Below, in pieces: positions 21,001 to 24,000 of a stretch of DNA of 64,000 nt (positions within the stretch are counted from its first letter, which is position 1; every line of letters begins with the position of its first letter). Made by a program: the position numbers. Origin of the DNA: Spirochaetota bacterium (GTDB lineage: Bacteria > Spirochaetota > Spirochaetia > CADAEX01). The DNA is taken from NCBI GenBank assembly GCA_009786125.1, contig WQTU01000139.1:8483-72482 (forward strand). Reading direction: 5' to 3'.

Positions 21001-24000
21001 CCAGGGCAACCAGGCTGCCGACAGAGCCGCAGCCTAATATTATTGCTTTTTTTTGGCACATTATATCAGATTCTAATATCCCCTTGTTACGTGAGAATAT
21101 ATTTTGATAGAGGCTGTATATTTCACATTTTATTTTTTTTCCATAACTATAAAAATCTATACCTGCACTTGTAATAACTCCACACAGCTTGTTCTTGTTA
21201 CAATTACTGCCTTTCGGTAACACTTTTCCTAGAAGCTCTCCTTTACTTTCCAGTTCGGGAGGAAATACATTATATATGGCAGATTCTTTGTAATACCTGC
21301 CATATATATTCCTTTCATTTTGAGTACTTGCCTGTATGTCTGATATGAATACCGTCTTTTCCATTTGTGGTTTTTTCATTCCTATAAATCCTTGTTTTCA
21401 TTTCCTATACCGAACGCACGCAGTAAACCAGACTTAAATGTGACATCTGCGGGGTTAAAGTCTGTTAATAAATTGGTGAATAGCCCTGGGGTATATAAAT
21501 AGCAATCATCGTCATGAGAAAAAACAATCTGCTTCTTATGTGCAACATATATAAAGTGAATCATTGTAACAATGTTACTTGACCCTTTATGAGATAAGCT
21601 TAAAACTCCCTTGTTTTGTTCAATTTTCAAAGCCAATTTTCGATTTTCAGAAAAATATGTTATATCGTCCAGCAAAGAATCAATTAAAAAATCTCGATAT
21701 TTTTCAGCCTCTTCTGGCTTGTAATCATCTTTAGACAGTGTAGTTTTCTGTAATTTTCCTTTGATGCTAACAAGTAAACGTAAAAAATCTATTTCCGGTT
21801 TGTCAAAGGTTTTATTTCCGGAATATAATTTGTCAGCGTAACTATTTATATATCCAAGTGATTTTTCCGCATTTCTTAACGCAAGTAAATGTTCAGGGAT
21901 TAAGTTATCACCCACTTTATAAGCGATTTTAGTATATTTAAGGGGCCATGCTACATGATATGGCGTAATGCGGAACTTTGGATCAATATTAACCAAAACA
22001 GAAACAGCGCCATTGGCAGACATTTTAGCATAATCAGAGTTAGTTCCATCGTCTGTGGAAGAAAACTCGTCAAAAGAACCCGGATGCCTGTGCCATAGCC
22101 CAATTAAAGTCAATTTTGCTTGATATATCTGTACTAATTTGTTTATTAAATGTTCTGTATATTTTTTATCGTACTCGAAGTATGCAACTTGAAAAATCGC
22201 CTTTGGGCCTGGGTCTATTGCTTCTATGACATACCAATTCCCATTCTCAAAGCAGCCTAAAAATATTCCGCCGGTTTCGGTTTTTATTTTTTCTGAGGTT
22301 TCCGAAATAACCGCCGTGTATGCGCGATTAGAAAAAATCACCTGCATAATTTTCCCCCGTTGATACATATAAGATATGCAAGTCTAATAACAATCAAACC
22401 TGCATAACTATCCTCCGCATGTAAATTCAGATCAAATAAATCGATCTCGATTCGCTAAACAAAAATTGACAAATGCATCTTTTTTAACAACAAGCTTCAC
22501 TGGAAATGGTAGCCCCTGGTAAACTAAAGAGAATATTGCTTCCACTGCTTTGTCATTTTCAGCTGCCGCTAAAGCAGCAGGCCCTACTTTCTCCTGAAAA
22601 ATCTTTTGTATCTGAGGCCAATGCTCCTCAATAGTTTTCTCGATCTGCTTATTCAGCACATTTCCTAAATCCATACACCCTCCTCTATAGTCTTAGTACA
22701 CACCTTCTATTGCTACTTCGTCACTTACCTCTCCGTTGATCCACATTTCACACAACATTATCCATTTGCACGCCCAACTTAGAGAGGAGGCGGCTGATGT
22801 AGAACGAGTCTGCGATGCTTTAAAATATTTGGGGTCGGCAGTACATATAAAATACTCTTCGTTACGTCCGAAGTTATCGCGGTAAATATGCGGAAGCCCC
22901 AAGCCCAAACCCTTTTCAGGCTTAATCGGTAATGTTTTCGCTATATCAACGAGACGCGGTTTAACGGGCAAAATTTGAATTGAGCCGCCATACATACCTT
23001 CTTCTGCCTGGGGATGGGTATTTTTATAAATCAACATCAAATCCCAAACCATTCCGCCTTTTCCGGTTGGCTGAACCTTTCCGCGCCAATATAGCCTTCC
23101 CGAACCATCTTCGAGTTTATAGAGCTTAAACGATGGGAAATATTTCCCCATTGCCATCTGTTCAGCCTCTAACAAATCAGGGTCACTCTGATACCAATAA
23201 AATCCCATTTTAACCCCTCCTTGCCAATTTTCCGTCAGGCACCTGAATGGCTGTGTGCCCCTGTTCTTCTGCTTCGCTTTGAAATTCTACTTCACCGGAA
23301 GGGGTGACAACTACATCTTCTCCTCCGCGCAAGGCTGCTGCTAACGCACGGCGTCTTGCTGCGACAGCATCCTCATCCGCATTATTATTCATATTGAACC
23401 TCCTAAAATACTATATTGATGAATCAGTTACTGCTGAATAATTTCTTAACTAGTTGTTGTTACCAGAAGTAACTATTACATCCGAATTATCATACTTTGC
23501 AGCTATTAAATCATTACGTCTTTTTGTAATAATAGCGGTATTAACTTCTGTTATGCGAATGCAATCAGTGAGAACATCAGAAGTAATACCCTCTTTTTTA
23601 TATGACAAGGAATCCTCTTTGATGTTTCCGATGATTTTTACAAGCAGCGACTTTTTCTTTTTTTTGATAACACCACCCATACAAACTCTTGGTTATGCTG
23701 TCGCTCTTTCTCTAGGTTTTTTATCAAAATTTCTGATAATTTCACCATTAGCAGAAATAGTAACCACACTCTCGCGTAATCCTGCTTGAGCCGCTTTCTC
23801 GCCATTCTTAAGAACAGATTGAGCGTATGTATTGTCAAATAATTCGCTGCCTTGCTCGGCCAGCTTAGCCAAATCAACGCCCTTATTATTTTCCATAGCT
23901 AAGGTATATGCAAAATAGTCTCTCATTCGCCGAAGAGCATTTTCATCGCTTGCAATAATCTCATCACATTTCTTTATCTGCCTAAACCGCTTGATGAAAC

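What the first reader, a model, noticed from the sequence alone, without database searches (positions are those of the whole stretch)
23210..23680. Two tiny proteins upstream of the E2-like gene are alternative candidates for the conjugated modifier
The 60-aa ORF (23210-23392) has an excellent RBS. It is Ala/Arg/Glu-rich, looks partly disordered and ends exactly in ...ARRG-stop. A free C-terminal Gly is what E1 enzymes adenylate, and its size and composition recall Pup more than ubiquitin.

The 76-aa ORF (23450-23680) is ubiquitin-sized and has a strand/helix pattern compatible with a beta-grasp fold. It ends ...VTSG-NNN, which looks like a precursor that a JAMM peptidase could trim to expose Gly.

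By eye, the 60-aa gene and the adjacent E2-like gene are richer in G/C than the rest of the operon. This suggests a mosaic origin.
Basis: inference. Interest (0 to 1): 0.7.

Follow-up and report, generated by a model that had tools for sequence, protein, structure and literature searches.

The report
Tiny alanine-ended modifier peptide beside E2

Summary
Both ORFs are real minus-strand genes. Only the 60-aa one is a core part of the system. It lies directly upstream of the E2-like gene in all 37 related genome loci, and its protein sequence is under strong purifying selection.

Its conserved end is I-x-V-P-x-G-K-L-A (Ala57), not Gly60. In 26 of 38 loci a stop codon follows the Ala codon directly. 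The window's extra "RRG" is the translated Shine-Dalgarno sequence (AGGAGG GGT) of the E2 gene.

In other genomes the peptide is fused in frame to the E2. Distant relatives carry head-to-tail arrays of 2-4 copies, each ending P-x-GKLA, fused to the E2, much as polyubiquitin and the BubAB fusion are built. The gene order peptide-E2-JAB-E1 matches Bil operons (Ubl-E2-DUB-E1). A C-terminal alanine has a precedent in type II CBASS.

AlphaFold2 gives a low-confidence helix plus short strands, not a beta-grasp.

The 76-aa ORF occurs in only four closely related loci. It is homologous to the N-terminal half of the 60-aa peptide and lacks the GKLA end.

The GC excess comes from amino-acid composition, not from a mosaic origin.

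No conjugation step has been shown; the mechanism is inferred.

The parts
23210..23392 (-). 60-aa peptide gene (orf60). Proposed precursor of a ~50-57-aa modifier peptide that lacks the beta-grasp fold.
   Evidence: ORF with a strong RBS. 129 homologues. Directly upstream of E2 in 37/37 loci. Purifying selection. AF2 gives helix 7-23, strands 27-29 and 35-37, helix 38-44, mean pLDDT 64.
23222..23233 (-). Codons for G54-K55-L56-A57. This is the invariant C-terminal motif and the proposed processing and activation site (after Ala57).
   Evidence: I49, V51, P52, G54, K55, L56 and A57 are invariant in 79 aligned sequences. A stop codon follows the Ala codon directly in 26/38 loci. The same motif ends every unit of the tandem arrays and forms the junction with E2 in the fusions.
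23213..23221 (-). Codons for the non-conserved tail R58-R59-G60. AGG AGG (23216-23221) doubles as the Shine-Dalgarno sequence of the E2 gene.
   Evidence: The sequence reads GCA AGG AGG GGT TAA A ATG. In other loci the tails RRS/RGE/KED/KEG/GED are likewise translated SD sequences.
23399..23404 (-). Shine-Dalgarno sequence AGGAGG of orf60, 6 nt before the ATG.
   Evidence: Upstream sequence.
23450..23680 (-). 76-aa gene (orf76). Clade-specific truncated paralogue of orf60 with a Lys-rich N-terminus and no GKLA end.
   Evidence: The database search returned only the identical protein. Syntenic homologues exist only in L001, L002 and L003. hhalign aligns orf76 aa 47-74 with orf60 aa 6-33, P = 7e-5.
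23459..23542 (-). Segment of orf76 (aa 47-74) homologous to orf60 aa 6-33 (window 23294-23377).
   Evidence: hhalign.
22693..23208 (-). E2-like protein (171 aa). Its ATG lies 1 nt after the orf60 stop codon. His107 and Cys122 are invariant.
   Evidence: PADLOC E2 models, E = 9.6e-9. Homologues carry PF26395. AF2 core is UBC-like, and the Foldseek top hits are E2/UEV proteins but weak, E = 0.08-0.6. Invariant H and C are also kept in distant relatives.
21382..22368 (-). JAB/JAMM metallopeptidase (328 aa). Proposed to cleave after GKLA.
   Evidence: PF14464, E = 2.5e-7. PADLOC JAB, E = 1.7e-12. E31, H93, H95, S103 and D106 are conserved in 31 sequences.
20255..21379 (-). E1-like ThiF-family adenylyltransferase (374 aa).
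   Evidence: PF00899, E = 9.5e-25. PADLOC Cap2-type E1-E2, E = 1.8e-25. Closest solved relatives are MccB (5e-11), Cap2 (9e-9) and MoeB. The GxGxxG, DNR and two CxxC motifs are conserved; there is no conserved Cys in the crossover loop.
23693..24622 (-). Membrane protein (309 aa) with two B-box-like zinc fingers. Possible E3, anchor, target or rival E1 substrate. Its C-terminus is conserved.
   Evidence: zf-B_box, E = 5e-4, below the Pfam cut-off. Present in 35 loci. 30/35 end in -AA after ...NGEIIRxF.
15946..20226 (-). EssC/EccC-like FtsK-family ATPase (1426 aa), a core gene of the same operon.
   Evidence: NCBIfam EccCa 1.8e-34 and EssC 2.7e-26, both below cut-off. Present in 35 loci and in the distant variant.
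15070..15930 (-). Peptidase M48 (286 aa), conserved downstream of the ATPase. An alternative candidate for the processing protease.
   Evidence: PF01435, E = 2.7e-23. Found in at least 22 related loci.
24703..26275 (-). Upstream core genes: 78-aa, 91-aa and 90-aa small helical proteins (weakly WXG100-like) and a 249-aa coiled-coil protein.
   Evidence: Weak WXG100 hit, E = 0.008. Conserved order in most loci.
22432..22674 (-). 80-aa ORF between E2 and JAB. Not part of the conserved system.
   Evidence: No counterpart in any of the related loci.

Best explanation
orf60 encodes the modifier (the ubiquitin-equivalent) of a Bil/Bub-like conjugation cassette with the gene order peptide-E2-JAB-E1. 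The functional unit is a module of about 50 residues (helix, small beta-hairpin, acidic loop, then the extended tail I-x-V-P-x-G-K-L-A).

Inferred steps, by analogy with known systems:
1. Where residues follow Ala57, a peptidase cuts after Ala to expose its carboxylate. Such residues are RRG in this window, an E2 domain in natural fusions, or the next repeat in tandem arrays. The peptidase is most likely the operon's JAB enzyme.
2. The ThiF-type E1 adenylates Ala57.
3. The peptide passes to Cys122 of the E2.
4. It is then joined to an amino group on a target. The membrane B-box protein may act as E3, anchor or target.

The JAB enzyme would also reverse the modification. The cassette works inside a conserved 11-gene system that also has an EssC-like ATPase, WXG100-like proteins and an M48 peptidase. 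The biological output of that system is not established; immunity or protein export are possibilities.

Shown here: conservation, synteny, fusions, tandem arrays, the invariant terminus and intact catalytic motifs. Every chemical step is inferred.
For: 1. Position. The order peptide-E2-JAB-E1 equals the Bil order Ubl-E2-DUB-E1 (Chambers et al.).
2. The peptide is present in 37/37 loci. It evolves as slowly as E1 and E2 (median identity to the window 67, 67 and 71%), while the other genes sit at 25-46%.
3. The end I.VP.GKLA is invariant in 79 sequences. A stop codon follows Ala directly in 26/38 loci. The tails elsewhere are translated SD sequence or frame-shifted read-through.
4. At least 7 protein clusters are natural in-frame peptide-E2 fusions (...VPDGKLA|SGFYWYQ...). 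This parallels BubAB, which the Bub JAB domain cleaves after the Ubl's last residue.
5. A profile search of 1.8 billion representative proteins found relatives with 2-4 head-to-tail modules, each ending P.GKLA, fused to the E2 (P0253, P0256, P0264, P0276, P0318). Copy number differs between 77-99% identical contigs. The JAB, E1, EssC-like and WXG-like genes are present there too.
6. About half of the standalone genes (56/120) carry an N-terminal leader with a second copy of the motif, which looks like a remnant unit boundary.
7. A C-terminal Ala is an accepted E1 substrate end in the related Cap2 system. There cGAS C-termini are Gly or Ala, and the E. cloacae enzyme, which ends in Ala, is conjugated (Jenson et al.).
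8. The JAMM motif, the E2 His/Cys pair and the E1 nucleotide and Mg motifs are all conserved.
9. In the AF2 model of a natural fusion, the junction VPDGKLA-MG has pLDDT below 50, as expected of an exposed linker.
Against: - No adenylation, thioester, cleavage or conjugate has been observed.
- The peptide is not a beta-grasp, and its AF2 models are of low confidence (pLDDT 64-68).
- The E1 has no conserved Cys in the crossover loop, so the transfer chemistry may not be canonical.
- The B-box membrane protein also has a conserved Ala-Ala C-terminus (30/35 loci) and could be the true E1 substrate.
- The M48 peptidase rather than the JAB enzyme could be the processing enzyme.
- Some apparent homologues with the module at the C-terminal end of a longer protein look like gene-calling artefacts, because they contain an internal MDNN start.
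Confidence: 0.6

Rival explanations
1. orf60 is a cleavable pro-peptide or regulatory subunit of the E2. It binds or masks the E2 and is released by the JAB or M48 peptidase to switch the system on. It is never adenylated or conjugated. GKLA is only a protease recognition site.
For: The peptide is always adjacent to the E2, often fused to its N-terminus, and the two genes are translationally coupled. It evolves at the same rate as the E2. AF2 gives no autonomous confident fold.
Against: In most loci the peptide is made with a free ...GKLA end that needs no cleavage (26/38). That points to the carboxylate mattering rather than the scissile bond. Arrays of 2-4 identical units with variable copy number make little sense for a 1:1 inhibitor. 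This model also leaves the E1 with no candidate substrate other than the B-box protein.
Confidence: 0.15
2. The conjugated protein is the B-box membrane protein, through its conserved C-terminal Ala-Ala, as cGAS is in type II CBASS. orf60 is an adaptor, competitor or target.
For: 30/35 B-box proteins end in -AA. A spacer of variable length follows an invariant NGEIIRxF motif, giving a disordered tail with a fixed small last residue, as in CD-NTases. The E1 and JAB enzymes are closest to Cap2 and Cap3 models.
Against: The window's own B-box protein ends ...RATA, and four loci end FAV or VTE. The B-box protein is much less conserved than E1 and E2 (median 37%). It is never found fused to the E2 or arrayed. 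In the distant variant (L038) no B-box homologue was detected, while the peptide arrays persist.
Confidence: 0.1
3. orf60 is a precursor of a secreted or modified peptide (RiPP-like or a T7SS substrate). The MccB-like E1 adenylates its C-terminus as a biosynthetic step, and the EssC-like ATPase exports the product.
For: The best solved relative of the E1 by sequence is MccB, which acts on a short peptide (E = 5e-11). The precursor has a leader and repeats, like multi-core RiPP precursors. The operon encodes an EssC-like ATPase.
Against: An E2 with an invariant catalytic Cys and a JAB isopeptidase are hallmarks of conjugation, not of RiPP pathways. The peptide is among the slowest-evolving proteins of the operon across several phyla, unlike typical bacteriocin cores. 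The C-terminal Ala lacks the Asn chemistry that MccB uses (established knowledge of the MccB mechanism). The ATPase hits are far below family cut-offs.
Confidence: 0.07
4. The 76-aa protein is the modifier: a beta-grasp precursor trimmed after Gly73.
For: It is ubiquitin-sized. A Gly lies 3-7 residues from the end in all four homologues.
Against: It is absent from 34 of 37 loci that keep E1, E2 and JAB. No other homologue exists among 5.8 billion protein clusters. The Gly shifts register (TSG, FG, FNSG, FTG) and aligns with the internal PSG turn of orf60. It has no GKLA motif and only a weak RBS.
Confidence: 0.02

Closest known systems
Bil (BilABCD) operons, types I and II: bacterial ISG15-like conjugation
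   Same: The gene order is the same: modifier-E2-JAB peptidase-E1. In Bil, the JAB enzyme pre-processes the modifier to expose its last residue, and there is no dedicated E3 (Chambers et al.).
   Different: BilA is a beta-grasp Ubl ending in Gly. Here the modifier candidate is a ~50-aa helix/hairpin peptide ending in Ala. The Bil E1 has IAD-AAD-CYS domains. Here the E1 is a single ThiF domain with a ~100-aa N-terminal extension and no conserved crossover-loop Cys. Bil has no EssC-like ATPase, WXG-like, B-box or M48 genes.
Type I Bub operons (BubAB Ubl-E2 fusion cleaved by the JAB domain of BubCD)
   Same: The modifier is encoded as an N-terminal fusion to the E2, and in Bub it is released by a JAB peptidase exactly after its last residue (Ye et al.). 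The same architecture is seen in P0122, P0253, P0264 and others.
   Different: Bub uses beta-grasp Ubls ending in Gly, Ser/Tyr oxyester chemistry and a DUF6527 protease. Here the E2 keeps an invariant Cys, and no Pfam model matched a DUF6527-type protein among the operon proteins scanned.
Type II CBASS (Cap2 E1-E2, Cap3 JAB, cGAS/CD-NTase as the conjugated protein)
   Same: The substrate is not a beta-grasp protein. It is recognised through a flexible C-terminal tail whose last residue is Gly or Ala. The JAB enzyme cleaves exactly after that residue. By profile, the E1 and JAB here are nearest to Cap2 and Cap3 models.
   Different: There is no CD-NTase and no effector of the CBASS kind. E1 and E2 are separate proteins. 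The substrate is a dedicated small peptide that also occurs in tandem arrays.
Polyubiquitin and ubiquitin-fusion genes of eukaryotes
   Same: Head-to-tail arrays of a very conserved small modifier. Each unit ends in the activation motif. Copy number varies, there are sometimes extra C-terminal residues, and fusion to another protein requires a peptidase for release (established knowledge; arrays shown).
   Different: There is no sequence or fold relationship. The motif is GKLA rather than LRGG, and the fusion partner is the E2 itself.
Pup (prokaryotic ubiquitin-like protein)
   Same: A small (~60 aa), Ala/Glu/Arg-rich, largely disordered tag without a beta-grasp fold.
   Different: Pup is ligated through a C-terminal Glu side chain by PafA (glutamine-synthetase fold), with no E1 or E2 (established knowledge). 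orf60 gave no Pfam or NCBIfam Pup hit, and the operon has ThiF, E2 and JAB genes instead.
MccB/MccA and PaaA/PaaP (ThiF-like enzymes acting on short peptides)
   Same: These are the best solved sequence relatives of the E1. They adenylate the C-terminus of a ribosomal peptide and bind it with an N-terminal clamp domain (established knowledge). The E1 here also has an uncharacterised ~100-aa N-terminal extension.
   Different: Those systems have no E2 or JAB enzyme, and their product is a small-molecule antibiotic rather than a protein conjugate.

Membership tests
Ubiquitin-like beta-grasp modifiers (Ub, ThiS/MoaD, BilA, BubA) | Beta-grasp fold (beta-beta-alpha-beta-beta, at least ~65 aa) | tested here: not met
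   AF2 with 79 sequences gives helix 7-23, strands 27-29 and 35-37, helix 38-44 (pLDDT 64, pTM 0.35). The same elements appear in the fusion model. The conserved module is ~50 aa. Low confidence weakens this result but does not reverse it.
Ubiquitin-like beta-grasp modifiers (Ub, ThiS/MoaD, BilA, BubA) | Conserved C-terminal Gly or Gly-Gly | tested here: not met
   The conserved last residue is Ala57. Only 35/120 homologues end in Gly, always within a non-conserved tail.
Ubiquitin-like beta-grasp modifiers (Ub, ThiS/MoaD, BilA, BubA) | Sequence-profile membership | tested here: not met
   No Pfam, NCBIfam, PADLOC or PHROG hit for orf60 or orf76. The PDB profile search gave only spurious low-complexity hits.
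Bil-type conjugation operon | Gene order modifier-E2-JAB-E1 with all three enzymes present | tested here: met
   The order is conserved in 36-37 loci.
Bil-type conjugation operon | [quoted passage not shown] | tested here: not met
   There is a single ThiF domain (aa 110-262 of 374). No conserved Cys lies between the two CxxC pairs.
Bil-type conjugation operon | E1-dependent adenylation, an E2 thioester, and isopeptide conjugates | not testable with these tools
   Needs biochemistry.
Type I Bub operon | Modifier-E2 fusion protein | tested here: met
   Not in the window itself, where the genes are separate with 1 nt between the stop and the ATG. Seven clusters of close homologues and the distant arrays are fusions.
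Type I Bub operon | E2 with catalytic Ser and a DUF6527 (BubE) serine protease | tested here: not met
   The E2 has an invariant Cys122. The Pfam scans of the operon proteins returned no DUF6527/PF20137 hit.
Type II CBASS | CD-NTase plus a Cap2 E1-E2 fusion | tested here: not met
   No nucleotidyltransferase is in the operon. E1 and E2 are separate genes.
Type II CBASS | Substrate with a conserved C-terminal Gly or Ala | tested here: met
   Ala57 is invariant.
Pup/PafA pupylation | PafA/Dop ligase and a C-terminal GGQ/GGE | tested here: not met
   No such domains were found in the operon, and the peptide ends in GKLA.
Type VII secretion system (for the surrounding operon) | EssC/EccC ATPase and WXG100 substrates reaching family thresholds, plus membrane components EssA/EssB/EsaA | tested here: inconclusive
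   EccCa scores 119.5 bits against a cut-off of 509, and EssC 91.5 against 778. WXG100 gives E = 0.008, below cut-off. No EssA/EssB/EsaA hits appeared in the scans that were run.

The most novel reading that the evidence does not exclude
A new class of prokaryotic protein modifier. It is a ~50-residue peptide without the beta-grasp fold. It is encoded singly, as an E2 fusion, or as polyubiquitin-like arrays. It would be released after an invariant GKLA motif and conjugated through its C-terminal alanine by a ThiF-type E1, a Cys-E2 and a JAB isopeptidase. The cassette is hard-wired to an EssC-like ATPase, WXG100-like proteins, a membrane B-box protein and an M48 peptidase. Peptide tagging would therefore control (or be controlled by) a T7SS-like export or immunity machine that has spread by horizontal transfer through gut Firmicutes, Spirochaetes, Fibrobacteres and Planctomycetes.
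Probability: 0.45. Interest if true: 0.85.

Novelty: new variant of a known kind. Interest (0 to 1): 0.72.

Why it matters
All characterised E1/E2-type conjugation systems use either a beta-grasp Ubl or, in CBASS, a whole enzyme as the tag. If this reading is right, a dedicated mini-peptide tag with an Ala terminus shows that the E1-E2-JAB machinery is not tied to the ubiquitin fold. The fusions and variable-copy arrays point the same way: making the modifier as a polyprotein or as an E2 fusion would be an old and recurrent solution.

The finding also gives a concrete, testable handle on a widespread 11-gene system that is entirely annotated as hypothetical. That system occurs in human-gut, rumen and termite-gut bacteria, including Faecalibacterium prausnitzii ATCC 27768. 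It links ubiquitin-like chemistry to an EssC/WXG100-type ATPase module.

A practical point follows for genome annotation. The visible terminal residue of a small ORF can be an artefact of read-through into the next gene's ribosome-binding site, so modifier candidates should be judged on orthologue alignments.

Tried and rejected
1. By eye, the C-terminus of the B-box protein (..LRESVVTISANGEIIRNF) looked homologous to orf60 (..LRGGEDVVVTPSGEVEF). hhalign gave E = 0.64, so this was dropped. Only the conserved -AA end is retained, as an observation.

2. Alignment A1 (fusions, E2 homologues and peptides together) was misaligned by MAFFT: the peptides were laid over the E2. It was discarded. A2 (fusions plus E2 only) was used for the structure job.

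3. Foldseek of the fusion model against the PDB gave almost only E2/UEV hits, but at E = 0.08-0.6 and TM 0.3-0.4. This is used only as weak support for an E2-like fold.

4. PDB profile searches were uninformative. The E2 profile and the JAB protein had no significant match. The peptide profile hit only de novo TIM barrels with zero significant stretches, which is a low-complexity helix artefact.

5. N-terminally extended 'homologues' (P0242, P0243, P0246, P0248) were considered as evidence that the module sits at the C-terminus of larger proteins. They contain an internal MDNN start identical to standalone peptides, so they are probably gene-calling artefacts. They are not used.

6. Metagenome retrieval with alignment A4 failed because no stretch was conserved enough. 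The single protein P0264 was used instead.

7. Literature. No paper in the held library describes an E1/E2/JAB cassette together with EssC or with this peptide. Burroughs et al. 2011 (Mol BioSyst, PMC5938088) and Burroughs et al. 2012 are not held. From memory only, the 2011 paper links prokaryotic B-box domains to membrane peptidases and suggests that YukD-like Ubls may be conjugated. It should be checked before any claim of priority.

8. Mobile-element context. There were no tblastn hits to the E2 in the plasmid or phage collections. Two IMG/VR contigs carry the whole operon, but their flanks hit only unknown-function PHROGs. This is inconclusive.

9. The structure of orf76 was not predicted. 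Both jobs went to orf60 and the fusion, and orf76 has no admissible homologues for an alignment.
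Full report
**What is at the coordinates**

The region lies in a minus-strand operon. Reading 5' to 3' on that strand, the genes are:
- a 78-aa protein (26039-26275), a 249-aa coiled-coil protein (25287-26036), a 91-aa protein (24990-25265) and a 90-aa protein (24703-24975). The small ones are helical and only weakly WXG100-like.
- a 309-aa membrane protein with two B-box-like zinc fingers (23693-24622)
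- the 76-aa ORF (23450-23680)
- the 60-aa ORF (23210-23392)
- an E2-like protein (22693-23208)
- an 80-aa ORF (22432-22674)
- a JAB peptidase (21382-22368)
- a ThiF-type E1 (20255-21379)
- a 1426-aa EssC/EccC-like ATPase (15946-20226)
- an M48 peptidase (15070-15930)

They are solid for ThiF, JAB and M48. The E2 assignment is profile-level (PADLOC E = 9.6e-9). The B-box, WXG100 and EssC assignments fall below the curated cut-offs.

The window comes from a Spirochaetes MAG, in which all of these genes except the E1 are annotated 'hypothetical protein'.

**Checking the observation**

The 60-aa ORF has AGGAGG 6 nt before its ATG and ends ...GKLARRG-TAA. The E2 ATG begins one base after that stop codon. 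The 76-aa ORF ends ...VTSGNNN and has a weak RBS.

The GC excess is real: 0.519 for orf60 and 0.440 for the E2, against 0.33-0.42 for the other operon genes. However, it sits in codon positions 1 and 2 (GC1 0.705). GC3 of orf60 is 0.377, inside the operon's range. In 33 related loci orf60 is on average 7.9 GC points above its locus, while its GC3 follows the host, from 0.05 to 0.60. The excess is therefore a family-wide effect of Ala/Arg/Gly/Glu/Val/Pro codons. It is not evidence for a mosaic origin.

**The 60-aa gene is a core, strongly constrained gene**

It has 129 homologues. A scan of one genome per species found 37 loci, in Fibrobacteria, Phycisphaerales, Defluviitaleaceae, Bacilli and many Clostridia, including F. 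prausnitzii ATCC 27768. All 37 have the peptide gene immediately upstream of the E2, within the conserved order 78aa-coiled coil-91aa-90aa-B-box-peptide-E2-JAB-E1-ATPase. The M48 gene follows the ATPase in at least 22 of them.

Between the window and L002, the 47-aa core is 100% identical in protein but only 53% identical at third codon positions. Median identity to the window is 67% for the peptide, 71% for the E2 and 67% for the E1. It is 46% for JAB, 44% for the ATPase and 25-40% for the rest. The peptide therefore evolves in step with the two enzymes that would handle it.

**The functional end is Ala57, not Gly60**

In an alignment of 79 sequences, I49, V51, P52, G54, K55, L56 and A57 are invariant, and nothing after A57 is conserved. 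The 38 loci (37 plus the window) divide as follows:
- 26 have a stop codon directly after the Ala codon.
- 1 (L001) is fused to the E2.
- 11 have 3-4 extra residues: RRG, RRS, RGE, KED, RED, KEG, GEA, GED, TTEV and FKEA.

Most of these tails are visibly the Shine-Dalgarno sequence of the E2 gene read in frame. The window has GCA AGG AGG GGT TAA; others have AAG GAG GAT TGA and the like.

Among 120 metagenomic homologues, tails run from 0 to 37 residues. Only 35 end in Gly and 30 end in Ala. The long tails are read-through into the E2 gene in another frame. In its place is a much stronger signal: an invariant ...VPDGKLA carboxy-terminus.

**Fusions and arrays**

Seven clusters of close homologues are in-frame peptide-E2 fusions, joined exactly at ...VPDGKLA|(S/M/A)(G)FYWYQ....

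A profile search of 1.8 billion representative proteins found 90 relatives. They include proteins with a short leader carrying the motif, then 2-4 full modules each ending P-x-G-K-L-A, then the E2 domain (P0253, P0256, P0264, P0276, P0318).

I recovered contigs for one such protein from human-gut metagenomes. They carry the same JAB, E1, EssC-like and WXG-like genes. The number of modules differs between contigs that are 77-99% identical.

About half of the standalone genes (56/120) have an N-terminal leader with a second copy of the motif (x-I-x-V-P-x-G-x-x-A). It looks like the tail of a preceding unit.

The module also occurs inside vWA-module-GKLA-GG-zinc ribbon-TIR proteins.

**Comparison with known systems**

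- In Bil operons the order is Ubl-E2-DUB-E1, and the DUB pre-processes the Ubl (Chambers et al.).
- In type I Bub operons the Ubl is made as a fusion to the E2, and the JAB domain cleaves it exactly after its last residue (Ye et al.).
- In type II CBASS a protein without the beta-grasp fold is activated through a flexible tail whose last residue is Gly or Ala, and a CD-NTase ending in Ala is conjugated (Jenson et al.; Ledvina et al.).

The peptide here matches each of these hallmarks: position, fusion to the E2, an exact conserved terminus, and Ala as an acceptable end. It adds polyubiquitin-like arrays.

The catalytic equipment is intact:
- JAMM residues E31, H93, H95, S103 and D106 in the JAB enzyme
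- E2 His107 and Cys122, invariant even in the distant variant
- the E1 GxGxxG, DNR and zinc CxxC pairs

**Structure**

AlphaFold2 on the peptide alone (79-sequence alignment) gives helix 7-23, strands 27-29 and 35-37, helix 38-44 and a disordered end (pLDDT 64, pTM 0.35).

The model of a natural fusion shows the same elements. Its junction VPDGKLA-MG has pLDDT below 50, and its E2 core is UBC-like. The Foldseek hits for that core are almost all E2/UEV proteins, but weak.

The peptide is therefore not a beta-grasp. It probably folds only on its partners.

**The 76-aa gene**

A search of 5.8 billion protein clusters returned only the identical protein. Syntenic homologues (40-47% identity) exist only in the three closest loci, L001-L003. 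The other 34 loci have no room for such a gene between the B-box gene and the peptide gene.

Profile comparison aligns orf76 residues 47-74 with orf60 residues 6-33 (P = 7e-5). 'AIITKRRNDLIAAKYDNSDVIVTSG' corresponds to 'AVAARRRALAAALRGGEDVVVTPSG'. Its 'TSG' is thus the internal hairpin turn of the module, and the protein stops where the acidic loop and GKLA tail would begin.

It is a real but clade-specific truncated paralogue with a Lys-rich N-terminus (MGGVIKKKKK). It might act as a decoy, a regulator or even an acceptor. That is speculation. It is not a credible modifier.

**Best explanation and caveats**

I conclude, at about 60% confidence, that orf60 is the modifier-equivalent of this cassette, activated at Ala57 after peptidase trimming where needed. 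Every chemical step is inferred. The main uncertainties are:
1. No co-folding or biochemistry was possible.
2. The E1 lacks a conserved crossover-loop Cys. Conserved S267, R269, H274, H275, Y277 and S278 lie there instead, so transfer may not be canonical.
3. The B-box membrane protein has its own conserved Ala-Ala end (30/35 loci) and is a rival substrate.
4. M48 rather than JAB could be the processing enzyme.
5. The E1's best solved relative is the peptide-adenylating MccB, which keeps a RiPP-like reading alive at low probability.

The role of the whole 11-gene system is open. In the window it sits next to a type I R-M methylase, RhuM and a Schlafen/AlbA_2 protein. Relatives of the module are fused to TIR domains. 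Both facts are compatible with an immunity function but do not show one.

**Novelty**

None of the searches of the held literature found a description of this peptide family or of an E1/E2/JAB cassette coupled to an EssC-like ATPase. Two relevant Aravind-lab papers are not held, and priority should be checked there. I rate the finding as a new variant of a known kind: ubiquitin-like conjugation machinery with a new type of tag.

Noticed in passing
window 23693-24622 (-); L001-L037 homologues: The B-box/TM protein ends ...NGEIIRxF, then 0-10 variable residues, then Ala-Ala in 30 of 35 loci. The window's copy ends RATA. A fixed small C-terminal residue on a spacer of variable length recalls CD-NTase tails in type II CBASS.
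   Followed up: partly
L038 13119-13616 and 14193-14828: In the distant variant, two membrane proteins begin with M-x-M-N-E-Y-G-E-I-(I/V)-R. This is the same short NGEIIR-like motif that closes the B-box protein in the window's family. It may be a shared docking motif.
   Followed up: no
window 15070-15930 (-): A peptidase M48 gene directly downstream of the EssC-like ATPase is conserved in at least 22 related loci. It is an eleventh core gene and a second candidate for the processing protease.
   Followed up: partly
window 22432-22674 (-): The 80-aa ORF between the E2 and JAB genes has a good RBS and is annotated (FWC36_10945). It has no counterpart in any related locus. It looks like an insertion specific to this genome.
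   Followed up: partly
L038 7814-9025 and 9257-9910: In the distant variant, the coiled-coil protein is 403 aa, and by eye its C-terminal domain looks like an ADP-ribosyltransferase toxin. The next gene holds two degenerate modules ending GKLAGPD and PKLAGPD.
   Followed up: no
P0287, P0300, P0326: The GKLA module is embedded in larger proteins: (vWA)-module-GKLA-GG-zinc ribbon-TIR(-FHA). This links the module to TIR effector proteins.
   Followed up: partly
window 20255-21379 (-): The E1 has no conserved cysteine in the crossover loop between its two CxxC zinc pairs. Conserved S267, R269, H274, H275, Y277 and S278 lie there. Its ~100-aa N-terminal extension matches no family, and its best solved relative is the peptide-clamping MccB.
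   Followed up: partly
window 8718-12068 (-) and 26583-26933 (+): A type I R-M methylase (HsdM), RhuM and a Schlafen/AlbA_2-wHTH protein lie a few kb downstream of the operon. An XRE-type HTH gene is divergently transcribed from its upstream end. This context resembles a defence island.
   Followed up: no
L046, L047 (IMG/VR contigs): Two contigs classed as viral carry the complete operon. Their flanking ORFs hit only PHROGs of unknown function, so a phage origin is neither shown nor excluded.
   Followed up: partly
L001-L003 and window: The window (a Spirochaetes MAG) and L001 (Fibrobacteria), L002 (Defluviitaleaceae) and L003 (Phycisphaerales), at least the first of which is from a gut sample, share 84-89% identical E2 proteins and 81-100% identical peptide segments. 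They are also the only loci with orf76. This indicates recent horizontal transfer between phyla.
   Followed up: partly
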